DNA from: Myxococcales bacterium
GTDB lineage: Bacteria; Myxococcota_A; UBA9042; UBA3505
Reading direction: 5' to 3'
Length of the DNA stretch: 64,000 nucleotides
NCBI GenBank assembly: GCA_002728755.1
Contig: PBVT01000008.1
Coordinates: forward strand, 5,189 to 69,188
The notes below the pieces were generated by a model. That model did not search any database. It was not told the origin of the DNA and saw only the letters and a list, made by a program, of their open reading frames with translations. The position numbers and the translations under genes were made by a program. Below, in pieces: positions 53,049 through 64,000 of the stretch. Every line of letters begins with the position of its first letter. The stretch's first letter is position 1.

Positions 53049-55292
53049 TCAATCGTCTGTCCGTGGAAGAGGCCAGCTTCCTGGAACCTCTAGCTCACGA
53101 AGCTCATCGAGCTCCTCTCCATGAGACTCGCCCGAATCGATCTCGAACAACTCGATCTCTTCGCCATGCATATTTTCGTCGAGTTCACCACGGCGCCTCT
53201 TTTCTTCCTGCTCTTTACGCTCTTTCCGCTTCAACTGCGCGAGTCGCTTTCTGCTCATCGATTTATAGATAACCGGTCGATCGTTCTTGATCTTAAAGGT
53301 ACGCCACCACAAGAAATGTACCGGGTGGAAATGGTAAAGAACTCCTTTCCAGGGCTTCTGCTCTAGACCAATATGCTTCGCTGTATCTTCCGTCAGCCAG
53401 ATGAACGGTATCATCTCTTCCAGCACCCGCAGATAGGCCGATTCGGCCTTCAGACGTTTCGGGCCCCGCATCAAGGACCGTAAGCGTGACTTCACCTCCC
53501 CCCAGTTCTTCGGTGATCCCTTATCGGGGTCCTCAAAGAGGGCTCGGAACCAATCGACCTGATCGGACCACTCCGAAACATGTCGTGTAGCCGCCGCCCG
53601 CATTCTTTGCAGAGCCGGACCAGGCTCAGAGTCGTAGAAGTCCATAATCTCATCTTCGTCGAGGATTCGACGATCCAATCCTCGACCCCGGAGTCTCGCT
53701 CCGGGCCGGAAGTCGGCCAAGACCCTTTTGGAACGCACGAGAAGTGAACGTTCCAGGTCCTCTGAAACCATTTCAAAATAGCGTCGGTGGCCCCCTCCTG
53801 AGACCGCCTGCGTCCATTGGGAGTCCGTAAAGATCTCTACATGGACGAGCTCCTCTCGCTCGTCTTCGGTTCCCAACTCACCACTAAAGCCAATCGTGGT
53901 ACCGGCCGTAACCTGAATGGCTTTCTTCCCCCCAGGTTTGAACATGGCCACCTTACCTTCACGCAAGGCCTGTAACGAGCCCTTCGTAAACATAAGGATC
54001 GGGTTGCGCCGTTCCGTCTCGTCGGATTCGGAGTCCCTATCATCCGTATCTCTACTATCTGCTCTCTCCTTCTTTGCTCCAGGCTTGGCTGCGGCGGCCT
54101 CCGCTTCCAGCATAGTACGTAACCAGTCTGGCTGTTCCGTTTTGGAGTCCATGGAGAACGTCAGCGGTCCTAGATGCATATAGAGAGAGTAGAACCGTAG
54201 AGTCTTTTCGTCTTCGTCCGGTCGAGCCGGCATGGGCACTTCATGACGAAGCACCACAAAGTTGTTGCTACCACGAACGGTAGGATCATCCGAAAAGTGT
54301 GCCAAGACCAGTGTACCGGAAAACATCGCCTGTACGGGAGTTCCCCGCTTCACGAAGAAATGTGTTCCACCATGCCAGTTTTGATACCGGCCAACCGGGT
54401 AGGTTCCACCTTTCCGAGCCGTCTCCGTATTGCGGTAATACTGCTCAGCAGCCGCACGGAATTTCTGAGGATCACGAAGCTCAGTCATGCTTCGAGGAAC
54501 CCCGGAGAGCGGTATGGGGAACGAATTCTGGGTATCGCTGATGGCGGCCATCACCCGGTCCCAGTCGAAGGCCGGGCCCGGATCCCACTTCTCAGCGCTC
54601 AGATGCCAATGGGCTAAAAGCCCCTTAAATGAATTGGCATCGTCTTCTTCCAGAATGTTCAGACGAACCTCACCGTTCTCACCCAGGGGAACATTCTTGG
54701 GGATATCCAAGCTCCCCATGAGCTCCGTCAGCAGCGCGATAAGCGCCTGATATTGTGCGTCGGTATAGCCATAGGAGCGGTATTGCACACCATTGATACG
54801 TACCGGGGGCGACGGGCCATCTCGCTGCTGACGACGACCATAGGTGTGCCCTTCCTTTGGAGTTCTGAGCAGGTTATGGGCGACATGGTTGAGATCGATA
54901 CCGATGCTGCGATCGTTCGCTTCACCGGCGTGAACCGCCTTATATTCCACATCAAGGGTCTGGTAGATGGTCCCGTCAGAATCAATCAAGAAATGTGTCG
55001 AAAGACCACGTCGTTGCAGCACATCGACCGCACCTGCAGAGGTATGAGTGACATCCCAATGGAGTATGATCTGGCTTATAGCGGCCTTCAGATCTTCCAG
55101 GGAACCGACGCGGCCATCCGGACCCTTTCGAGCCCCCCATCCTCGACCGGGATTGGAGATTGGATCCGATAGATATTGGGCCGTCCCCAGGCGCTTCAGG
55201 TCCAGGCTACGCTTATCCTTCCAGGTCACAACTCCGTTCGGAGCCCCTTTAACCTCGTGCTTCTGACCCATGATGTAGATGTGGTTGTCCAC
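53049..55292 (-). CDS. multidomain peptidoglycan hydrolase: N-acetylmuramoyl-L-alanine amidase (amidase_2/PGRP) + split M23 (LytM-like) peptidase + charged C-terminal region; no signal peptide
   Basis: Amidase_2 motifs (HWDVT...HAGEANDRSIGIDL, HWHLSAEKWDPGPAFDW). M23-like motifs WHGGTHF..GTPV, YSLYMHL and GFSGELGTEDEREELVHVEIF are separated by an acidic insert, and the second motif is H-poor. The C-terminus is Lys/Arg/Glu-rich. Confidence 0.65.
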   Translation of the reverse strand: MDNHIYIMGQKHEVKGAPNGVVTWKDKRSLDLKRLGTAQYLSDPISNPGRGWGARKGPDGRVGSLEDLKAAISQIILHWDVTHTSAGAVDVLQRRGLSTHFLIDSDGTIYQTLDVEYKAVHAGEANDRSIGIDLNHVAHNLLRTPKEGHTYGRRQQRDGPSPPVRINGVQYRSYGYTDAQYQALIALLTELMGSLDIPKNVPLGENGEVRLNILEEDDANSFKGLLAHWHLSAEKWDPGPAFDWDRVMAAISDTQNSFPIPLSGVPRSMTELRDPQKFRAAAEQYYRNTETARKGGTYPVGRYQNWHGGTHFFVKRGTPVQAMFSGTLVLAHFSDDPTVRGSNNFVVLRHEVPMPARPDEDEKTLRFYSLYMHLGPLTFSMDSKTEQPDWLRTMLEAEAAAAKPGAKKERADSRDTDDRDSESDETERRNPILMFTKGSLQALREGKVAMFKPGGKKAIQVTAGTTIGFSGELGTEDEREELVHVEIFTDSQWTQAVSGGGHRRYFEMVSEDLERSLLVRSKRVLADFRPGARLRGRGLDRRILDEDEIMDFYDSEPGPALQRMRAAATRHVSEWSDQVDWFRALFEDPDKGSPKNWGEVKSRLRSLMRGPKRLKAESAYLRVLEEMIPFIWLTEDTAKHIGLEQKPWKGVLYHFHPVHFLWWRTFKIKNDRPVIYKSMSRKRLAQLKRKERKEQEEKRRRGELDENMHGEEIELFEIDSGESHGEELDELRELEVPGSWPLPRTDD

Positions 55293-55295
55293 GGA

Positions 55296-56939
55296 TCAGC
55301 CTCCCTTCCCGAATAACTTCTTTATGAGCTTCACAAAGCCCTTGCCTATCTTGAGGAAGAGCTTCAGGCCAATGAACAATAAAAGCATCCCCAGTACGAC
55401 CAGAACAATATTCGCCGGCCAACGACCAATCTTATTTTGTAACCAGCCCTTAAAGCGGTGAAATCTAGCGACGAGACCACGATCCACACGAGGAATCGTC
55501 GCCGACATCCAGTCGGTCTTGGAGATATTTCTCCTATCCCCGATTACCGAGGCCGCAAGTCGAACCTCTAGCGTCTCTCCTTCTAGAAATTTGTCGGCAC
55601 CTGTTGGCCGGAGATCGATCACCAGACTGGAAGTAAGTTCCGTAATGGCCGCTCGAGCCTCCTTCACAAAAGAATCCCCTGAATCCGCCATTCGGAAGGT
55701 GCCACCACTCTTATTGCTGAGTAGGCGCATACGTTCGACCACATAGGAATCGGCAGATGGTAACAATACGGTCTGAAGGCGTATTTGATTCGCCCGCAGC
55801 AGCGGAAGAAGAGTTGTCGCTTTCTCCAGGAACGGCTCTTGTTGAATCGTCCCCACGGCCTTCGCCATACGTCTGGATATGCACTTCTTCTGGCAGCGAC
55901 GACGCGCTTTCTTTTTCGAGATTCCGGCTTCACGCCGCTCATTCGTCACACACTTGTCCGTCGCCCCCTTATCTTCTCGACAGGTGGCTGCTATGGAATC
56001 CTGACACCTGGCGAGGGTCTGCGTATATCCATCAACACCATCCCCCAGATATACCAATAACGAGTATCCTCCCGGACGCCGGTAGCGAGTAAGCAGCTCC
56101 GCCGCCACGTCGATTCCACCCGTGCGCACACGCTTCTCAAGTTCTTCATCATCCAGTGGCGAGCGGTTTTCGGGATCCCGACGATCGCGGCTATGAAAGA
56201 CTTTGGGGGTTGCGTTCGGGCAATACCTCCACGGTAATCCAAGAATCGATGGATACTGGCCTTCAAAACTGGCTTCACCGCTTTCTTCAATAGCGGTCTC
56301 CAGGTCCTTCCATTCCCCAACGAGACCACAGGGATGCACAGCCTTGGAGACTCCCTTCTTGGCAACCTCGTTATAAAAATCAACATCCGCCTTCCGACAG
56401 AATTGGTGAATTTCCGTTTCACTCTGCACTTCCCAATAATCCGTGAACTCCGCGCCCCGGTCCGGATGCGCCACAAAATAATGAAGGCCATCTGTAACCC
56501 AGATGAGATTGACCCGCGCCGAGCCAGGCAGCTCCTTAAAAATTTCGGAGACTGCACTTCGAATGTAGCCCTGGGCTGCGCTGTCCATGTCCTTGTGGGC
56601 GCTTACGACCAGAACAACATCCAAGGGAAGTTCCTGGTCTGCAAAAGACGCGATCTCCGATTCAAAATGCGTAGGGGCCAGATCAATAAATGTCTCCAGC
56701 ACCTGTCCTCTCTTTGCGCCTTCCGTTCGGACTTCCACATCGAGCTGGAGAAGATCTTCATCCATTAGCATGGGGACGCGTCCGTCTTCGGATAGAAAAC
56801 TGGCAATCACACGAAGTCCGCGCCCAGACCGATTTTCCAACTTGAGGATCCGCCCCATGGTGGGCCCGGCGTACGCCTGGGCAATGCCACTGATGGCCAA
56901 AAGAGCCAATACTGCGATGCGAACAATCAGCCGAAGCAT
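55296..56939 (-). CDS. secreted vWA-like domain protein with Cys/Lys-rich module and cationic amphipathic C-terminal TM anchor
   Basis: A signal peptide MLRLIVRIAVLALLAISGIAQAYA. Rossmann-like segments (DVVLVVSAHKDM, LLVYLGDGVDG) suggest a degenerate vWA domain. The C-terminus reads IVLVVLGMLLLFIGLKLFLKIGKGFVKLIKKLFGKGG. The gene is 3 nt upstream of the hydrolase gene. Confidence 0.45.
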   Translation of the reverse strand: MLRLIVRIAVLALLAISGIAQAYAGPTMGRILKLENRSGRGLRVIASFLSEDGRVPMLMDEDLLQLDVEVRTEGAKRGQVLETFIDLAPTHFESEIASFADQELPLDVVLVVSAHKDMDSAAQGYIRSAVSEIFKELPGSARVNLIWVTDGLHYFVAHPDRGAEFTDYWEVQSETEIHQFCRKADVDFYNEVAKKGVSKAVHPCGLVGEWKDLETAIEESGEASFEGQYPSILGLPWRYCPNATPKVFHSRDRRDPENRSPLDDEELEKRVRTGGIDVAAELLTRYRRPGGYSLLVYLGDGVDGYTQTLARCQDSIAATCREDKGATDKCVTNERREAGISKKKARRRCQKKCISRRMAKAVGTIQQEPFLEKATTLLPLLRANQIRLQTVLLPSADSYVVERMRLLSNKSGGTFRMADSGDSFVKEARAAITELTSSLVIDLRPTGADKFLEGETLEVRLAASVIGDRRNISKTDWMSATIPRVDRGLVARFHRFKGWLQNKIGRWPANIVLVVLGMLLLFIGLKLFLKIGKGFVKLIKKLFGKGG

Positions 56940-57406
56940 GGTAACGCTCGCAGGTGAAAGGCTTTCATCCAGGAACTAGACCACGGTTGGCCCTCCTCGC
57001 CGTCCGGGTGCAAACTAACCGCCAACTCGTACTGTCCAGGAACCCAACGCTCCTCTGGCAGATCCAAGATAAGAGACAACCCATTCTTCGAGTCCGTCCA
57101 GCGGACCTCATCCACTATCGCTTCTAGATCGTCTTTCACACGTCGAACCCGAAGGGTTGCCGCTCCCTGCTTCCAGGAAGAAGGCAACGTAAGCTCAACA
57201 CGGCCACCTGGCCACCCCTCCCAGGCGACCAATACCGGCTCTTCACGTACACGTAAAAGATGGACAACCAGCCCGCCCGCCACCACGCCGACCGGAGCCG
57301 CTCCGAGAGCGAATCGGAGAAAGCGTCGTCGCCCCACATCGACCGAGTTGGATCCGAGTTCCGATTTCATGGGATCAAACATCCCGCGAATACCCAACGA
57401 ATGCAA
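56927..57406 (-). CDS. small hypothetical protein with Tat-like signal (GRRRFLRFALGAAP)
   Basis: It overlaps the downstream gene by 13 nt. The start is uncertain, with candidate Met codons at 57406, 57382 and 57370. Confidence 0.4.
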   Translation of the reverse strand: MHSLGIRGMFDPMKSELGSNSVDVGRRRFLRFALGAAPVGVVAGGLVVHLLRVREEPVLVAWEGWPGGRVELTLPSSWKQGAATLRVRRVKDDLEAIVDEVRWTDSKNGLSLILDLPEERWVPGQYELAVSLHPDGEEGQPWSSSWMKAFHLRALPCFG

Positions 57407-58950: not shown

Positions 58951-59706
58951 GTGGCGTTGACCTATCAGAAACCCACTCCCTATAATCCAGCGCATATGAC
59001 GGACGATAACAATCAGAACGGCTCCAATGGAAGCGACGGCCTGGATGATATCCTGAAGCGTGCTTCTGCCGACGCCTCGCGAGAAAGGGAAGAGATCGAA
59101 GCGAAGCTTAAGGCCGAAGCAGCGGATCGGGAAGCCCAGGAGAAGGCCGACCTCGAGCGCCGACGGCAAGACTTGTTGGAACAGCGAGAAGACGCTATCC
59201 GCAAACGTCAAAGTCAGCTCATGAACCAACCGGAGATGCAGTCGCTACAAACAAGCTCTCCCGAGGCATCTACAGAGCGTGTGGTTCCTGCTGACGATTT
59301 AGGCTTTGGCCAACAGAAAATACGATTAATGGCTGCCATCATCGGGTTGACCGCGATCGTAGCGGTTTCCGCTGTCATCTTCATCCCCAAGGAGAAGAAG
59401 CCTGCCCCGGAAGAACCCAACCCCACTGCGAACCAGGTAGATACAAGTAGTTCTGCCGCGGATGTCACGTCCACCAAGAAAGAAGATGCCACGGTTACTG
59501 TTACCGATGCTCCGAGCGCCAGTGCAGAGACTGTCCAGAGCCAGGCGGATAGTGGAACCGACACCAAAGAGATCATCAGCGAGCCAAAAAAGAAAAAGGC
59601 CACGAAAAAGCGTCGACGTGCACGAACCAACAAGAAACCACGAAAGAAGCCTGTAAAACGTCCACGCCGAAAGAAGATTCAGATCGACGACGATGATTCC
59701 TTTTGA
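58951..59706 (+). CDS. hypothetical bitopic protein: acidic coiled-coil N-terminus, TM helix, Ser/Thr-rich segment, extremely Lys/Arg-rich C-terminus
   Basis: A TM helix LMAAIIGLTAIVAVSAVIFI. The C-terminus reads KKKKATKKRRRARTNKKPRKKPVKRPRRKK. The gene lies 28 nt upstream of the AAA ATPase gene. Confidence 0.4.
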   Translation: MALTYQKPTPYNPAHMTDDNNQNGSNGSDGLDDILKRASADASREREEIEAKLKAEAADREAQEKADLERRRQDLLEQREDAIRKRQSQLMNQPEMQSLQTSSPEASTERVVPADDLGFGQQKIRLMAAIIGLTAIVAVSAVIFIPKEKKPAPEEPNPTANQVDTSSSAADVTSTKKEDATVTVTDAPSASAETVQSQADSGTDTKEIISEPKKKKATKKRRRARTNKKPRKKPVKRPRRKKIQIDDDDSF

Positions 59707-59733: not shown

Positions 59734-61209
59734 ATGACACAAGCCAATAACGACCTTCTTCAGGCCCTTGCTGATATCGATCGTATTGTCCTTTTACAGG
59801 TACAGGACGAGCGCTATGCCCAAGAGGCCGTTCAAGGCTGTGCAGAACAATTGGGCTGTTCCTGGACGACCTGGGATCTGGGTTCGGACGGGGCCGAAGA
59901 GGATCCCTTACAAAGCCTCAACCAATATATAGACACCCATAGCGGCGATTGGATTTTGTCCTTTGACCTGGCCGACCGGATATCCGACCCCGTATTTGCA
60001 CGCCAATTGATTCAACGTTCGAAGGCGTCGGACGGCCCCGTACTCATTATCGCGGTGGACGGCCCCCGTCCTGCTCCAGCTCTCCAACCCTATGTCCGAT
60101 TCGTAAAGCTACCCGTTCCTTCCATAGAAGACACGATTCAACGGGTCATCCGGGGCTTAAAGAATACGGGCTGGAAAGAACCCAAGAAGGATAAAGAGTT
60201 ACCGGTTCGCCTCGCCCGGCTCGTTCGAATGATGCACGGCTTATCCCTCACTCGACTCGACCGAACCGTCCAACGACTGGCGAATCAAGACCCAATGCTT
60301 GGAGAGAAAGCACAAGAGCTGGTCCAGCAAGCTCGCCGAGAACAACTGCACGACCTGGAATTCCTCGAGATGATCGAGAATACACCGTCGGAAAATCAGA
60401 TTGGTGGTCTAGAAGTGCTGCAAGAGTGGCTTCATCGACGAAGACGCGCGACACAGCTGGGTGTATTGCAGCGAACCGTTCCCCCTCCTCGGGGCATGTT
60501 ATTGGTCGGTGTCCCCGGTTGTGGAAAGAGTCTCGCGGCACAGGTTAGCGCAAGTGTTTTTCAGGTACCTCTACTCCGACTGGAGTTCGGTAGACTTCGT
60601 GGAAACACCGAAGGTCCCGAGCGGCGGCTTCTCCGTTGCCTGGCAGAAGCCGATAAAGCAGCACCATGCGTTCTCTGGTTGGACGAGATCGACCACGCCC
60701 TCGGAACCGTTGCCACGCACCAGGAAAATCAAGGATTGGTGGGGACATTAACGTCCTGGCTCCAGGAGCATGAGACGGAAGTCTTTGTCGCAGCGACAGC
60801 CAACCGAGTCGAAATGCTACCACCGGAGCTGGTTCGAAAAGGACGTTTCGACGAGATCTTCTTTGTCGATCTGCCGAACCGCACCGAGCGAGCTGACATC
60901 TTACGGGTTCACCTTCGCGCCGTAGAAGAAGACGCAACCTCCATCGATGTAGATAAGCTCGCCGAATCCACGGCCCAATACACCGGGGCCGAGCTGGAGG
61001 CGATTGTTCGGGAAGCGAAGATTGAAGCCACTCTCTCCTCCAGTGCTCTCACAACAGAGGTGATAATGGATGTGGTGAGCCAGATCGTGCCTCTCGTTCG
61101 AACCCATGAAAAGGAAATCCGGCATCTAAGGGAGTGGGCTACATACCGTGCACGTTCGGCTTCTACGGATACGGGCGTCTTGGCCTTTTTCGATTCCAAC
61201 GACGAATAG
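59734..61209 (+). CDS. AAA+ ATPase (classical AAA clade) with uncharacterised N-terminal domain
   Basis: Walker [10 protein letters not shown], Walker [10 protein letters not shown] and the second region of homology [27 protein letters not shown]. The first ~240 aa (N-terminal domain) match no known family. Confidence 0.75.
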
Positions 61210-61360
61210 CCGGTTCCCTCTCGAATCCCGTGACGAGGCTTGGTCTGAAGAACGTTGTACGGATTGGATTGTCCTGCTATCTTGCCAGGAGGGATTTTTG
61301 GGCAGTGGTGAAAACCACCCTGGTACAAGTCTATAAACCTACCAGAACCGAACACGATCA

Positions 61361-61663
61361 TTGATGCCAGAATTGACGAATATCAAGTCCGACACAGCCT
61401 ACTTCGTGAGCGATGGTCTCGCCTGGCGAAATGTAGATAGTGACGTCTTCGTATTCAAACCTGGTGGATCGCTGCATGTACTGGAAGGTCCGGTCGCCCA
61501 ACTTCTCTGGTGTACACTCGATAAACAGGCCTGTTCACCAGACCAACTGACAGAAGTGGTCGTGCAGAACTTCAACGTGGGTGCCCAGGACGCGGCACAG
61601 GACGTTACAGAGTTCTTTGGTGTACTCGCCGAGCAGGGCTTGATCATTGCAAACCACCCCTGA
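61361..61663 (+). CDS. PqqD-family (RiPP recognition element-like) small protein
   Basis: A 100-aa protein. The pattern FVFKPGGSLHVLEGPVAQLLWCTLDKQACSPDQLTEVVVQNFNVGAQDAAQDVTEFFGVLAEQGLI fits a PqqD/RRE winged-helix fold. Confidence 0.5.
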   Translation: MMPELTNIKSDTAYFVSDGLAWRNVDSDVFVFKPGGSLHVLEGPVAQLLWCTLDKQACSPDQLTEVVVQNFNVGAQDAAQDVTEFFGVLAEQGLIIANHP

Positions 61664-61886
61664 AGACTCGACCAGCCAGAATGTAGCCTCTCAAGTTATC
61701 TCGGAGAAATCCGAGGATCTCTGTGTAAGCACTCTACATTTGGCAACGGCGAATCTGTTCTACTGTCCGATGACCAATTCAGGGTGTAGTTCATTTGATC
61801 CTGCTGCCATTTTCTATCAAGATCCACGGAATCAAGTTGTTGTGGACCATATTTCGGGTTGACCCTTATGTGCCCGGAGGTATTCG

Positions 61887-64000
61887 ATGAAAACCCGCTC
61901 TGTTTTTTCTGTTCTTTCGTCTAAACGTTCCATCACCGCCAGACTCTATAGTCGAAGTCTAAGCTGGCATATGATTGTTTTGTTCGCGCTCTTCGCCGGT
62001 CAGGCCGGTTGCGCGGGTGGATGTGATGGTACGACACCCCTCATCGATGTTCCCGACATCAGTGATTCGGACAGCTCCGATACGATTGGCACCACAGCCT
62101 TTGTGGACTTTGCAATTGCCACCGCAAGTGGTGAGACGGGCTTCGGTGAATCGAACGTGATCCTTACCGCAGAGGACGAACCAGAGAAGTATAAGGACGT
62201 CGCTGATTTCCAGGTCGATATCGTTGTAGAAACTCGTAATGTGGAGAATGGGCAGCCTGTACAGCTGTACGTAAAAGACCAACTGGTCGATGAAACCCAG
62301 GTGCAACTCGACGCGGGTGCGGATGAAGGCAGCGCTCTATTTGAGGCCGTCACTCTCGGCCACGACACGGAAGGCTACGAAATACGTGTCGAGACCATAA
62401 ACCAGGATGGTGAAACAGCCGTCGAAGCGAAAACGGCACAAGTCAGTACCGGGTTCTGTTCCGTCGACGTTCTTCCACCGAATACAGGCTGTCTCACAGA
62501 AGATATAGATGAAGCCGGCGGTCTACAGGTCCAGCTCACCGTTCTGAACGCAGAAGCCGATTGTGATCAGGCAAGTCTGACCGTCAGTATTGATGGAGCC
62601 GATGCGGAGACCTTCGAATCCAGCCTCGACGCAAGCGGACAAGCTGTATTCGTCCTCACGGTCTCCAGTGAAGACACCGTTGATGGTCTCGGTATCGAGG
62701 TGAGCGCTCAGGTAAGTGATAGCCAGGACCCCAGCCGCACGGGTGCAACGAATCCCCTCGACTATGTAATCGACACCGTAGCGCCGACAGTACTCATCAC
62801 CGTTCCCGACAAGTCTATTTTGACCCTTGGTGATGATCTTGACGGCGACCCCTCCAATGGCCTGAACACCTTTATCGAAGGTACCGTATCGGGTGAATCT
62901 ACGGGCGAGGTCCAGCTCAATCTCGATTCTACCGAGCTCGGCCTGGTCGCTGCACAAGGTGACGGCACCTTCCGACTCGACACCGTATTTCAGGAGGCCG
63001 GAACCTTTACACTCTCTGCCGTTGTAACCGATAGCTGCGGAAACGAGGGGACCGACAGTCGAATCCTCGATATCATCCCGTCGCCGAGTGATCTTACGAT
63101 CATGACTCCAACCAACAACTCCACTTTGTTGGCGGTTGACGACAACGATCCCCAGACCTCTCTTTTCTATGAAACGCAGTTTGATGTCATGACGGGAGAT
63201 ATTCCCCTTGGCTACGACCTGAGTATCGAATGTGCCGATTCAACAACCCCCGATGTATATGTGGAGGTTGGTAGTACTCTATTGGACGTCGCCGATCCCG
63301 ACGATCGGTATCTCGTCGATGTCGTATTGAACCGCGAGTCTCTTGGAGTTACTCAGAACTGCCATGCACGCTACCAAACCCCCACTCCCAGCATATCCGG
63401 AGATGTCCAGCTGACGGTTGCCCTACCGGCTCCGACCCTTACGATTCTCGAACCGGCAACCAACTTCTCTACCAACCAGGGCGTTCTGGCCATTACAGCA
63501 TCCGCCACGGGTCTGGATGATATCGTACCGGTCGCAACCATCCTGGGTGGGGACGGAGAGCCAATCTCCGACACCACGGTGGTCGAATCCAGTTTCCAAA
63601 ACGGCGGACTGACCACACAGCTCGCCCTTGAAACAACGAACGGAATCGCTCTTCCGGATGGACCGTATACATTGCAGCTCGATGCAGACGATACCTATGG
63701 AAATGCCGCCCGTGATAATCCAGCTTCGGTGTATAGCGTCGAGTTCCGTATTGATAAGACTCCGCCTTCACTGAGCCTCATCGCTCCCGCTGTACCGGTC
63801 CTGGACCCGGAGAATGATCCCAACGCGGCCGATGTAGACCCGGATCTTGCCGGGTACCAGACAACCATCGAGATTCAAGTAACCGGTGAATCCCTACTAG
63901 AGCAGGTCCAGGTCTGTATTCAGATCAACTCGGGTGTAGAGACCTGCACAACTCCTGCCCCGGATAATGGCGTAGCCACATTTACTGCGGTCACTCTCCA
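61887..64000 (+). CDS. giant secreted/surface protein with tandem bacterial Ig-like (Big) domains, 3'-truncated by window edge
   Basis: A GGAGG ribosome-binding site 6 nt upstream of ATG 61887. The frame is open to the window end (more than 700 codons). Repeated domain starts DTVAPTVLITVP and DKTPPSLSLIAP are typical of Ig-like folds. The protein is acidic and Thr/Val/Asp-rich, with a hydrophobic signal-like segment MIVLFALFAGQAGC. Confidence 0.6.
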   Translation, partial: MKTRSVFSVLSSKRSITARLYSRSLSWHMIVLFALFAGQAGCAGGCDGTTPLIDVPDISDSDSSDTIGTTAFVDFAIATASGETGFGESNVILTAEDEPEKYKDVADFQVDIVVETRNVENGQPVQLYVKDQLVDETQVQLDAGADEGSALFEAVTLGHDTEGYEIRVETINQDGETAVEAKTAQVSTGFCSVDVLPPNTGCLTEDIDEAGGLQVQLTVLNAEADCDQASLTVSIDGADAETFESSLDASGQAVFVLTVSSEDTVDGLGIEVSAQVSDSQDPSRTGATNPLDYVIDTVAPTVLITVPDKSILTLGDDLDGDPSNGLNTFIEGTVSGESTGEVQLNLDSTELGLVAAQGDGTFRLDTVFQEAGTFTLSAVVTDSCGNEGTDSRILDIIPSPSDLTIMTPTNNSTLLAVDDNDPQTSLFYETQFDVMTGDIPLGYDLSIECADSTTPDVYVEVGSTLLDVADPDDRYLVDVVLNRESLGVTQNCHARYQTPTPSISGDVQLTVALPAPTLTILEPATNFSTNQGVLAITASATGLDDIVPVATILGGDGEPISDTTVVESSFQNGGLTTQLALETTNGIALPDGPYTLQLDADDTYGNAARDNPASVYSVEFRIDKTPPSLSLIAPAVPVLDPENDPNAADVDPDLAGYQTTIEIQVTGESLLEQVQVCIQINSGVETCTTPAPDNGVATFTAVTL

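What the first reader, a model, noticed from the sequence alone, without database searches (positions are those of the whole stretch)
59734..61663. AAA+ ATPase with novel N-domain followed by an orphan PqqD-like (RRE) gene
PqqD-family proteins normally act as leader-peptide-binding RiPP recognition elements. Examples are the B1 component of lasso peptides and partners of radical-SAM enzymes in PQQ and sactipeptide pathways. No cyclase, radical-SAM enzyme or protease gene is visible nearby. Instead the neighbours are a classical AAA ATPase with an uncharacterised 240-aa N-terminal domain, preceded by a Lys-rich bitopic protein, and a giant Ig-like surface protein. A TTG-initiated ORF (61647..61862, 71 aa, 3 Cys) overlaps the 3' end of the PqqD-like gene by 17 nt and is the only nearby candidate peptide substrate. 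This could be a non-canonical RRE-dependent pathway, or the RRE may have been repurposed as a peptide- or protein-binding adaptor for the AAA unfoldase.
Basis: partly seen in the sequence, partly recalled or inferred. Interest (0 to 1): 0.6.

Follow-up and report, generated by a model that had tools for sequence, protein, structure and literature searches.

The report
RiPP cassette starter gene, not orphan
The small PqqD-like gene is a genuine peptide-binding 'recognition element', but it is not orphan and is not tied to the neighbouring AAA ATPase: it is the first gene of a conserved peptide-modification cassette whose radical-SAM enzyme lies just beyond the end of the window.

Summary
The genes are real. 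The AAA ATPase is at 59734-61209 and the PqqD-like gene at 61361-61663. PqqD scores above the Pfam threshold, and its AlphaFold model matches solved RiPP recognition elements.

The interpretation mostly fails.
1. The same contig continues beyond base 64000 as: giant Ig-like/FG-GAP protein (2356 aa), a 61-aa peptide, a 287-aa HPr-kinase-like P-loop protein, a 394-aa radical SAM/SPASM enzyme with no recognition element of its own, and a 236-aa protein ending in an S26 signal-peptidase-like domain.
2. A distant MAG (26-29% identity) has the same order: PqqD, giant protein, 55-aa peptide, HprK-like protein, two rSAM/SPASM enzymes, methyltransferase, S26-like peptidase. Its flanks are unrelated and it has no AAA gene.
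3. The two peptides share a leader (YVxPxVxSxxA[YF]E[KR]LALA), two Cys and a C-terminal Ser.
4. The 71-aa ORF is not coding. Its substitutions show no codon periodicity, and it is absent in relatives.
5. The "novel" N-domain is a degenerate AAA+ module found in very many bacterial AAA proteins. The AAA gene pairs with the upstream Lys-rich membrane protein, with or without PqqD nearby.

The cassette resembles the uncharacterised SynChlorMet and HPr-rel-A systems. The embedded giant surface protein is the unusual part.

The parts
58951..59706 (+). 251-aa bitopic protein (K251). It has an N-terminal charged helical region, one TM helix, an acidic/Ser-Thr low-complexity stretch and a Lys/Arg-rich tail. 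It is the conserved partner of the AAA gene and is not part of the PqqD cassette.
   Evidence: ORF. Found directly upstream of the AAA gene in L001/L016, L004, L005 and L003. The architecture is conserved in alignment A8. Maximum Kyte-Doolittle (19-residue window) is 2.67 at residue 127. No Pfam or NCBIfam family reaches its cut-off.
59734..61209 (+). 491-aa AAA+ ATPase. It consists of a degenerate, motif-less AAA+-like module (about residues 1-210) followed by an active classical AAA module (about 250-435 plus lid). Aromatic pore loop 1 is absent in this clade.
   Evidence: Pfam AAA 6.4e-24 and AAA_lid_3. PDB matches are VAT/p97 D2. 7814 homologues were found, many covering 85-98% of the length. 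Alignment A4 shows the Walker A, Walker B, sensor and Arg residues conserved, but 'RLRGNTEG' where relatives have 'YYGESE' or 'VVGASE'. The N-domain model has pLDDT 85.6 and matches TRIP13, RuvBL, FtsH and p97 ATPase domains at about 1e-6.
61255..61360 (+). Conserved non-coding stretch upstream of the PqqD gene. It may be a promoter or leader; its function is unknown.
   Evidence: Near-identical to the 84% relative, while the first 45 bases after the AAA stop codon are not. There is no significant RNA fold (z 0.46), no Rfam match and no predicted + strand terminator between AAA and PqqD.
61361..61663 (+). PqqD-family RiPP recognition element (99-100 aa). It is the first gene of the conserved cassette.
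   Evidence: Pfam PqqD 30.8 bits against GA 23.4. The best NCBIfam hits are the HPr-rel-A system PqqD chaperone, lasso PqqD and ScmD, all below their cut-offs. AF2 pLDDT is 90.6. Foldseek top hits are TbiB1, lasso B1 and PqqD. It is the only PqqD-subfamily ORF in the window and in L018. A giant-protein gene follows it in every relative where the contig reaches far enough: L016, L004, L008 and L019.
61647..61862 (+). The 71-aa TTG ORF proposed as a substrate. It is an open frame but not a gene.
   Evidence: Substitutions against L001 by codon position are 8/12/9, with no periodicity in any frame. 20 of 71 residues change, including one of the three Cys. There is no homologous ORF between PqqD and the giant gene in L004 or L005. 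No family hits.
61664..61886 (+). Highly conserved 223-nt spacer and 5' leader of the giant gene, ending in a GGAGG Shine-Dalgarno sequence before the ATG at 61887.
   Evidence: 81-92% nucleotide identity to the 84% relative, against 65-80% in the flanking coding DNA. Only patchy conservation in L004 and L005. No Rfam match. Fold z-score 0.52.
61887..64000 (+). 5' part of the giant surface (lipo)protein gene (2356 aa; Big_13 Ig-like repeats and C-terminal FG-GAP repeats). The gene runs to window-equivalent position 68957. It is a conserved internal member of the cassette.
   Evidence: Translation. Full gene at L013 10524-17594 and L018 1839-8909, with Big_13 at 1.9e-18 and FG-GAP_3 at 9.4e-11. 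A homologous giant gene follows PqqD in L016, L004 (46%), L008 (48%) and L019 (24% over 947 aa, E 7e-10; also Big_13 and FG-GAP).

The rest of the cassette lies outside the window (L018 coordinate + 60048):
- 61-aa precursor, 69000-69185
- HprK-like p287, 69182-70045
- rSAM/SPASM, 70049-71233
- MT-remnant/S26-like p236, 71230-71940
.

Best explanation
The PqqD-like gene is the discrete recognition element (RRE) of a conserved radical-SAM peptide-modification cassette that starts in the window and continues past its 3' end. The gene order is:
1. PqqD
2. giant Ig-like/FG-GAP surface protein
3. 55-61-aa precursor peptide
4. HPr-kinase-like P-loop protein
5. one or two radical SAM/SPASM enzymes
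6. methyltransferase (here only a remnant)
7. soluble S26 signal-peptidase-like protease

Proposed mechanism. The gene content and its conservation are shown; the chemistry is inferred.
- PqqD binds the conserved leader segment YVxPxVxSxxA[YF]E[KR]LALA and presents the C-terminal core to the RRE-less rSAM/SPASM enzyme, as PqqD does for PqqE and MftB for MftC. The core is about 19-24 residues, with two Cys and a C-terminal Ser.
- The rSAM/SPASM enzyme installs a radical cross-link, most plausibly Cys-derived.
- The HprK-like protein modifies the invariant C-terminal Ser, by analogy with lasso-peptide kinases.
- The S26-like protease removes the leader after the Ala-x-Ala-like 'LALA' site.
- The giant surface protein is a conserved member of the unit. 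Its role (receptor, scaffold or co-functioning partner of the peptide) is unknown.

The AAA+ ATPase and the upstream Lys-rich membrane protein form a separate conserved gene pair. That pair merely neighbours the cassette in this lineage.
For: - Own contig beyond the window and the 84% relative have the same order: PqqD, giant, 61 aa, 287 aa, rSAM/SPASM 394 aa, 236 aa. All are on the + strand with 42-nt to overlapping junctions.
- rSAM: Pfam Radical_SAM 1e-17 and SPASM 2.8e-12. NCBIfam neighbours are NirJ2, MftC, PqqE, ScmE and GeoRSP. PDB matches are SkfB and PqqE. CxxxCxxC sits at residues 30-37, so there is no fused N-terminal RRE. The full CX12GX4C...CX2CX5CX3C...C SPASM pattern is present.
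- The 61-aa gene shows coding-type conservation: substitutions 4/5/14 by codon position and 87% aa identity.
- p287 has 123 homologues in 1.84 billion representatives. Of 52 scanned, 38 match HprK-related kinase B, 31 match HprK-related kinase A, 27 match ScmC and 16 match PEPCK_ATP.
- The p236 C-terminus matches archaeal-type signal peptidase I at 2.3e-6 and carries GGSM and HR motifs. Its L019 counterpart scores 6.7e-10. The two are similar to each other at 2e-5, and neither has a TM segment.
- The distant cassette L019 has the same order with unrelated flanks and no AAA or K251.
- The precursors are similar at E 4e-9 (50% over 36 aa). Both have 2 Cys and end in Ser. The leader motif occurs once per locus.
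- A giant gene follows PqqD in every locus where the contig reaches far enough.
- Only one PqqD-subfamily ORF exists in the 16-kb L018 locus.
- Literature: discrete RREs bind leaders and recruit enzymes (PMC7470986). HPr-kinase homologues phosphorylate the C-terminal Ser of lasso precursors (PMC8498205).
Against: - PqqD lies 7.3 kb (one giant gene) from the precursor gene, and co-transcription is not shown.
- The window PqqD and the L019 PqqD are only distantly alike (BLASTP not significant; hhalign E 3.4e-4, probability 38%).
- Only two deep lineages show the complete cassette. The third (L004/L005/L008) is cut off by short contigs.
- p287 itself matches no HprK model. The link is transitive, through its homologues.
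- The S26 and methyltransferase assignments for p236 are below curated cut-offs.
- No scores reach the cut-offs of any named system.
- All chemistry (cross-link type, phosphorylation, cleavage site) is inferred.
Confidence: 0.8

Rival explanations
1. One reading: the RRE has been repurposed as a peptide- or protein-binding adaptor for the neighbouring AAA+ unfoldase (with K251), independent of any RiPP enzyme.
For: - AAA and PqqD are co-directional neighbours in the window, in its 84% relative, and (with one gene in between) in the 51% relatives.
- No terminator-like site is predicted between them.
Against: - AAA plus K251 occur without PqqD in L003, and four more distant AAA homologues with the same N-domain (L009-L012) also have no PqqD.
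- The PqqD cassette occurs without AAA or K251 in L019.
- A DeoC-like gene separates them in L004, L005 and L008, and its end overlaps the PqqD start.
- General synteny (GNAT, K251, AAA) is shared among these relatives, so adjacency is explained by descent.
- This AAA clade lacks the aromatic pore loop.
- A canonical rSAM partner exists.
Confidence: 0.04
2. The true substrate of PqqD and the rSAM enzyme is the giant surface protein itself, or a segment of it. The small peptide would then be an accessory factor.
For: - A giant gene immediately follows PqqD in all lineages seen.
- The spacer between them is unusually conserved.
- To my recollection of the TIGRFAM descriptions (not checked here), no precursor was identified for the SynChlorMet cassette.
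Against: - A small ORF with a conserved leader-like motif, a variable Cys-containing tail and coding-type conservation sits exactly where precursors usually lie, directly before the modifying enzymes.
- The leader motif is not found in the giant proteins or elsewhere in the loci.
- The giant protein carries an N-terminal signal/lipobox-like sequence and would leave the cytoplasm, where rSAM enzymes act.
Confidence: 0.1
3. The PqqD gene is a stand-alone winged-helix protein (for example a regulator of the giant gene), unrelated to either the AAA or the rSAM genes.
For: - RRE-Finder notes that some discrete lasso-type RRE hits may be DNA-binding relatives (PMC7470986).
- PqqD sits directly upstream of the giant gene with conserved non-coding DNA on both sides.
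Against: - The best structural matches are leader-bound RREs and PqqD, not DNA-binding wHTH proteins.
- It scores above the Pfam PqqD threshold.
- The adjacent cassette needs an RRE and has no other.
- The same arrangement is found in L019.
Confidence: 0.05

Closest known systems
SynChlorMet cassette (NCBIfam/TIGRFAM ScmC, ScmD, ScmE, ScmF: HprK-like protein, PqqD homologue, two radical SAM/SPASM enzymes)
   Same: The component set is the same: a discrete PqqD-family protein, an HprK-superfamily protein and one or two PqqE-like rSAM/SPASM enzymes. The hits are:
- window PqqD to ScmD, E 0.014; L019 PqqD to ScmD, 4.9e-6
- rSAM to ScmE, 7.9e-26, and to ScmF, 2.6e-17
- 27 of 52 p287 homologues to ScmC
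.
   Different: - All scores are far below the equivalog cut-offs (15.6 against 100; 90.8 against 400), and p287 itself gives no ScmC hit.
- This cassette also has an identifiable precursor, an S26-like peptidase, a methyltransferase or its remnant, and a giant Ig-like/FG-GAP surface protein between PqqD and the rest.
- No paper on the Scm cassette is in the searchable library.
HPr-rel-A system (NCBIfam TIGR04352 HprK-related kinase A plus TIGR04353 PqqD family peptide chaperone) and HPr-kinase-like lasso peptide kinases (paeninodin PadeK type)
   Same: - TIGR04353 is the best NCBIfam hit of the window PqqD (E 2.1e-4).
- 31 of 52 p287 homologues hit HprK-related kinase A.
- Both precursor peptides end in Ser, the residue phosphorylated by lasso-cluster HPr-kinase homologues.
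   Different: - The scores are below cut-off (22.2 against 35).
- No lasso cyclase or B2 protease is present.
- The core enzyme here is rSAM/SPASM.
- Phosphorylation is inferred, not shown.
PqqD-PqqE (PQQ) and MftB-MftC (mycofactocin) pairs
   Same: A discrete PqqD-type RRE is paired with an rSAM/SPASM enzyme that has no fused RRE. The rSAM hits MftC at 2e-27 and PqqE at 4.3e-27. PDB PqqE 6c8v matches at 7e-13.
   Different: - The scores are far below the equivalog cut-offs (96 against 265; 95 against 381).
- The precursor has no E-x3-Y (PqqA) or C-terminal Gly-Val-Tyr (MftA).
- There are no PqqB, PqqC or MftD-F genes.
COG0464-type single-ring bacterial AAA proteins ('SpoVK/Ycf46/Vps4 family', ~490-540 aa)
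   Same: The AAA protein aligns over 85-98% of its length with thousands of such proteins from Streptomyces, Polyangiaceae, Planctomycetota and others. They share N-domain positions W47, D78, R90, L117 and G169.
   Different: - The window clade has lost the aromatic pore-loop-1 motif.
- It is always preceded by the K251-type membrane protein.
- The function of the whole family is uncharacterised as far as I could find.

Membership tests
PqqD / RiPP recognition element (PF05402) | Sequence match to the PqqD model above the gathering score | tested here: met
   30.8 bits against 23.4, E 3.8e-7.
PqqD / RiPP recognition element (PF05402) | Winged-helix fold: a three-stranded sheet plus three helices, superposable on solved RREs | tested here: met
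   AF2 pLDDT 90.6, strands 21-25, 28-32 and 38-41, helices 44-55, 60-71 and 75-91. Foldseek: TbiB1 5v1v E 1.6e-5, TM 0.74/0.83; lasso B1 6jx3; PqqD 5sxy.
PqqD / RiPP recognition element (PF05402) | Encoded with a modifying enzyme that lacks its own RRE, and with a precursor peptide | tested here: met
   rSAM/SPASM with CxxxCxxC at residues 30-37. A 61-aa peptide gene is present. The same set is found in L016 and in distant L019.
PqqD / RiPP recognition element (PF05402) | Binds the leader of its cognate precursor | not testable with these tools
   Needs binding assays or a complex prediction.
PQQ biosynthesis (PqqA-E) | PqqE and PqqD equivalogs, a PqqA E-x3-Y precursor, and PqqB/PqqC genes | tested here: not met
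   rSAM against PqqE scores 95 bits against a cut-off of 381. The window PqqD gives no TIGR03859 hit. The peptide lacks E-x3-Y. There are no PqqB or PqqC genes in L013/L018.
Lasso peptide cluster | B2 transglutaminase-like protease and Asn-synthetase-like cyclase next to the B1 RRE | tested here: not met
   None among the called genes of L013/L018. The lasso PqqD models score 17-18 bits against cut-offs of 70-80.
SynChlorMet cassette (ScmC-F) | Equivalog-level matches to ScmC, ScmD, ScmE and ScmF | tested here: not met
   ScmD 15.6 against 100; ScmE 90.8 against 400; ScmF 63.3 against 400. There is no ScmC hit for p287 itself, although 27 of 52 of its homologues hit ScmC. The architecture is shared, but membership is not.
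HPr-rel-A system | TIGR04353 PqqD chaperone and TIGR04352 HprK-related kinase A above their cut-offs | tested here: not met
   TIGR04353 scores 22.2 against 35. p287 gives no hit at E<0.1. 31 of 52 homologues hit TIGR04352.
Radical SAM/SPASM peptide maturase | CxxxCxxC radical SAM cluster motif plus a seven-Cys SPASM domain | tested here: met
   PF04055 1e-17 and PF13186 2.8e-12. CDLNCVHC, then CX12GX4C, CX2CX5CX3C and a final C, read from the sequence.
HPr kinase-like P-loop kinase superfamily (p287) | Detectable homology to HprK/PEPCK-type P-loop domains | tested here: inconclusive
   There is no direct HMM or PDB hit for p287. The link is transitive: its phmmer homologues (E down to 1e-10 and weaker) hit HprK_rel_A, HprK_rel_B, ScmC, PEPCK_ATP and Hpr_kinase_C. 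The H-A-A...GPRGAGKTT...SDD motif order fits.
S26 signal peptidase I-like protease (p236 C-terminus) | Match to signal peptidase I models, with the Ser nucleophile and general-base motifs | tested here: inconclusive
   TIGR02228 scores 27.6 bits against 51.85 (E 2.3e-6). The L019 counterpart scores 39.1 bits (6.7e-10). GGSM and LHR motifs are present in both.
Classical AAA unfoldase (FtsH/Cdc48/PAN clade) | Walker A/B, sensor 1, Arg fingers and AAA_lid_3 | tested here: met
   [18 protein letters not shown] and RKGRFD are invariant in A4. Pfam AAA and lid_3 both hit.
Classical AAA unfoldase (FtsH/Cdc48/PAN clade) | Aromatic-hydrophobic-Gly pore loop 1 for substrate threading | tested here: not met
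   The window clade reads '[10 protein letters not shown]' where relatives read 'YDKYYGESE' or 'FSGVVGASE' (alignment A4).

The most novel reading that the evidence does not exclude
The cassette is a mobile functional unit in which a radical-SAM-matured, possibly C-terminally phosphorylated peptide works together with a giant Ig-like/FG-GAP surface lipoprotein. The peptide could be a ligand, a cofactor, an attached modifier or a regulator of the adhesin. That would be a role for a RiPP-type peptide that, to my knowledge, has not been described. It would also give the uncharacterised HprK-like/PqqD/rSAM cassettes (SynChlorMet and HPr-rel-A type) their first identifiable precursor family.
Probability: 0.25. 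Interest if true: 0.7.

Novelty: new variant of a known kind. Interest (0 to 1): 0.42.

Why it matters
As posed (an orphan RRE serving an AAA unfoldase), the finding would have been a new use of the RRE fold. The evidence does not support that, and the apparent orphan status is an edge-of-window artefact.

What is actually there is an uncharacterised RiPP-like cassette of the catalogued but unstudied PqqD + HprK-like + rSAM/SPASM type. It has three useful features:
- A recognisable precursor family with a conserved leader, an AXA-like cleavage site, two Cys and a C-terminal Ser.
- A soluble S26-like candidate leader peptidase.
- A giant surface protein that travels with the cassette between distant lineages.

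These features make the chemistry directly testable by heterologous expression. They also raise the question of why a peptide-maturation system is genetically locked to an adhesin-like giant protein.

Tried and rejected
- PqqD subfamily searches: the word-index search with the single protein found only itself. With an alignment it found 9 proteins, all on short marine contigs. The genome and metagenome locus scans returned only 1 and 2 loci, so broad co-occurrence statistics for this PqqD subfamily were not possible.
- orf71 as a precursor: rejected on substitution pattern and absence in relatives.
- Structured RNA or riboswitch in the conserved spacers: no Rfam match at E<=1, and fold z-scores of 0.46 and 0.52.
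- Promoter and terminator scan: nothing above shuffled expectation, and no + strand terminator between AAA, PqqD and the giant gene.
- Direct assignment of p287 to HPr kinase: no NCBIfam, Pfam or PDB hit with the single sequence or the two-sequence profile, and no plasmid homologue. It was resolved only transitively.
- Defence-system reading of the AAA: only generic AAA-domain similarity to IetA/IteA, with no partner protease.
- Literature on SynChlorMet, HprK-related kinase, or PqqD + HPr kinase + radical SAM: nothing in the held library.
- No rSAM/SPASM relative exists inside the window itself.
Full report
**1. The observation**

- The 491-aa protein (59734-61209) has a classical AAA domain (Pfam AAA 6.4e-24, AAA_lid_3 1.6e-8). 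Its closest solved relatives are the D2 rings of VAT and p97.
- The 100-aa protein (61361-61663; public gene calls start at the ATG at 61364) passes the Pfam PqqD gathering score (30.8 against 23.4 bits). It has weak NCBIfam hits to the HPr-rel-A system PqqD chaperone, lasso PqqD and ScmD.
- An AlphaFold2 model built on nine subfamily sequences is confident (pLDDT 90.6). It has the recognition-element topology of a small sheet followed by three helices.
- The best Foldseek matches in the PDB are leader-bound TbiB1, another lasso B1 protein, PqqD itself and then RRE domains of other RiPP enzymes.
- The Lys-rich bitopic protein (58951-59706), the giant Ig-like protein (from 61887) and the 71-aa TTG ORF (61647-61862, three Cys) are all present.

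**2. The 71-aa ORF is not a gene**

- I compared it with the orthologous region of an 84%-identity relative (L001/L016). Its 29 substitutions fall 8/12/9 on codon positions 1/2/3, and no other frame does better. The same comparison gives 6/1/26 for PqqD and 67/32/277 for the AAA gene.
- The frame stays open in that relative, but 20 of 71 residues change.
- In the next lineage out (L004, L005) there is no homologous ORF between PqqD and the giant gene.
- The DNA here is nevertheless unusually conserved. It shows 81-92% identity across 61301-61900, against 65-80% in the flanking coding sequence. It therefore looks like a regulatory region or 5' leader rather than a peptide gene.
- It has no Rfam match and no significant fold.

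**3. The 'novel' N-domain**

- The AAA protein has thousands of homologues of about 490-540 aa that align over 85-98% of its length. They come from Streptomyces, Polyangiaceae, Planctomycetota and others, and share conserved N-domain positions.
- A model of residues 1-229 (pLDDT 85.6) is a five-stranded alpha/beta core followed by a helical lid. It matches AAA+ ATPase domains (TRIP13, RuvBL, FtsH, p97, RFC) at about 1e-6.
- It has no Walker motifs, so it is a degenerate AAA+ module in front of an active one. It has no Pfam model of its own, but it is neither new nor rare.
- The window's clade has replaced the aromatic pore-loop-1 motif (YYGESE or VVGASE in relatives) with RLRGNTEG. That does not favour a threading unfoldase.

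**4. What the AAA gene is linked to**

- The 251-aa membrane protein lies directly upstream of the AAA gene in every close relative: L001/L016, L004, L005 and L003. Its architecture is conserved: a charged helical N-region, a TM helix, a low-complexity stretch and a Lys/Arg tail.
- PqqD follows AAA in the window and its 84% relative.
- In the 51% relatives a DeoC-like aldolase gene sits between them, and its end overlaps the PqqD start.
- In the 49% relative (L003) there is no PqqD at all.
- Four more distant AAA homologues with the same N-domain have unrelated neighbours and no PqqD.

**5. What the PqqD gene is linked to**

Looking up the PqqD protein returned the window's own contig beyond base 64000. 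L013 and L018 cover it, and L018 is identical to the window over 3952 bases with an offset of 60048. After PqqD come, all on the + strand:
- The giant protein (2356 aa; Big_13 and FG-GAP repeats).
- 42 nt later, a 61-aa gene.
- Overlapping that, a 287-aa P-loop protein (p287).
- A 394-aa radical SAM/SPASM enzyme.
- Overlapping that, a 236-aa protein (p236).
- Then unrelated envelope genes: CpoB/YbgF, LysM, a ComEC-like MBL protein and a K+ channel.

Details of these genes:
- The rSAM enzyme has its CxxxCxxC at residues 30-37, so it has no fused RRE. It has a complete seven-Cys SPASM domain. Its nearest models are NirJ2, AhbD, MftC, PqqE, ScmE and GeoRSP, and its nearest structures are SkfB and PqqE.
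- The 61-aa gene is under coding constraint (substitutions 4/5/14; 87% aa identity).
- p287 gave no direct family hit. A full HMMER scan of 1.84 billion representatives found 123 homologues. Of 52 scanned, 38 match HprK-related kinase B, 31 match HprK-related kinase A, 27 match ScmC and 16 match PEPCK_ATP. It therefore belongs, by transitive homology, to the HPr-kinase-like P-loop superfamily.
- p236 has a methyltransferase remnant at its N-terminus. Its C-terminal domain resembles archaeal/ER-type signal peptidase I (E 2.3e-6), carries GGSM and HR motifs, and has no TM segment.

**6. The decisive comparison**

A 26-29%-identity homologue of p287 lies on a 52-kb contig of another MAG (L019). 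There the order is:
- PqqD (104 aa)
- giant Big_13/FG-GAP protein (about 1670 aa)
- an uncalled 55-aa ORF
- HprK-like protein
- two rSAM/SPASM enzymes
- a full methyltransferase
- a 145-aa S26-like peptidase (E 6.7e-10)

The flanks are completely different: thioredoxin-like, histidine kinase and sigma-54 activator genes. There is no AAA or K251 homologue.

The 55-aa ORF is homologous to the 61-aa peptide (BLASTP E 4e-9):
- ...KKKTYVKPRVHSRPAYEKLALASCATSPETIPQPFGDCLPS
- ...KRKRYVPPQVSSSEAFERLALACSGTSGASPKGGGRAPPPCTNQFS

They share a conserved leader, a divergent tail with two Cys, and a C-terminal Ser. The motif occurs only once per locus. The S26-like domains are also mutually similar (E 2e-5). 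The two PqqD proteins are only distantly alike (hhalign E 3.4e-4).

A giant homologue also follows PqqD in L004 and L008, where short contigs hide the rest.

The cassette, including the giant gene, therefore behaves as a unit that is independent of the AAA gene.

**7. Mechanism**

Shown:
- Gene content, order and conservation.
- The RRE fold.
- An rSAM enzyme without its own RRE.
- A precursor-like peptide with a conserved leader.

Inferred from established knowledge of PqqD/PqqE, MftB/MftC and discrete RREs (PMC7470986):
- PqqD binds the leader and presents the core to the rSAM/SPASM enzyme, which makes a radical cross-link, plausibly from Cys.

Inferred from lasso-cluster HPr-kinase homologues, which phosphorylate the precursor's C-terminal Ser (PMC8498205):
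- p287 modifies the invariant C-terminal Ser.

Inferred from signal-peptidase specificity (my own knowledge):
- The soluble S26-like protease cuts after the Ala-x-Ala-like 'LALA' that ends the conserved leader.

The role of the giant surface protein is unknown. Its retention inside the cassette across about 25%-identity divergence argues that it is functionally tied to the peptide.

**8. Comparison with known systems**

- The component set (discrete PqqD, HprK-like protein, PqqE-like rSAM/SPASM) is that of the NCBIfam/TIGRFAM SynChlorMet cassette and the HPr-rel-A system.
- Every score is far below those families' cut-offs, so this is a relative by architecture and not a member.
- It is not PQQ, mycofactocin or lasso. 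The equivalog scores, precursor features and accessory genes all fail.
- I found no paper on these cassettes in the held library.

**9. Verdict**

- The AAA-adaptor idea and the 71-aa substrate are not supported.
- The PqqD gene is the RRE of a conserved, uncharacterised rSAM/SPASM peptide cassette with an embedded giant surface protein.
- It is a new variant of a known kind, of moderate interest.

**10. Limits**

- Only two deep lineages show the whole cassette.
- All look-up caps for further loci were used.
- All of the chemistry is inferred.

Noticed in passing
window 61255-61900: This is an island of raised nucleotide conservation against the 84% relative. Identity in 150-nt windows is 0.81-0.92, against 0.65-0.80 elsewhere. 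It covers the non-coding DNA on both sides of PqqD and the PqqD gene itself, whose third-codon positions are 74% identical against 44% in the AAA gene. It is not explained by Rfam, RNA folding or a hidden ORF.
   Followed up: partly
window 59734-61209 (AAA residues ~285-297): The window's AAA clade (P0001-P0007), and some more distant relatives, lack the aromatic pore-loop-1 motif. They read RLRGNTEG where relatives read YYGESE or VVGASE. The Walker A/B, sensor and Arg-finger residues are kept.
   Followed up: partly
window 58951-59706; L004 2540-3295; L005 3209-3970; L003 7190-7999: The membrane protein upstream of the AAA gene has a conserved architecture across three lineages: a charged helical N-region with invariant Arg residues, one TM helix, an acidic/Ser-Thr stretch and a Lys/Arg-rich tail. 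It abuts or overlaps the AAA start in L003, L004 and L005. Its function is unknown.
   Followed up: partly
L004 4877-5785; L005 5542-6444; L008 15-764: In the 51%-identity lineage a DeoC/class-I-aldolase-like gene is inserted between AAA and PqqD. In L004 its end overlaps the PqqD start by 4 nt, which suggests translational coupling of the aldolase with PqqD there.
   Followed up: no
L018 11182-11892 versus L019 13263-15046: The window organism's p236 looks like a fusion of a truncated class-I methyltransferase (only the post-motif-II part, with no GxGxG) with the S26-like peptidase. L019 has a full 447-aa methyltransferase and a separate 145-aa peptidase. L019 also has two rSAM/SPASM genes where the window organism has one.
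   Followed up: partly
alignment A7 (p287 homologues): Two of 52 homologues of the HprK-like protein also match signal peptidase I / Peptidase_S24 models. In some genomes, therefore, the kinase-like and peptidase-like domains appear to be fused, which supports their working together.
   Followed up: no
window 53049-55292 (- strand) and 55296-57406: A 747-aa protein with an Amidase_2 domain and a weak M23 peptidase domain, followed by 547-aa and 159-aa proteins with no family match. The block is conserved in the 84% relative. It is probably cell-wall related.
   Followed up: no
L003 9536-10981 (- strand): In the 49% relative, a B12-binding radical SAM gene lies immediately downstream of the AAA gene on the opposite strand. 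It is not related to the SPASM enzyme of the cassette (no hit at E<1 with the cassette rSAM profile), so the proximity looks coincidental.
   Followed up: partly
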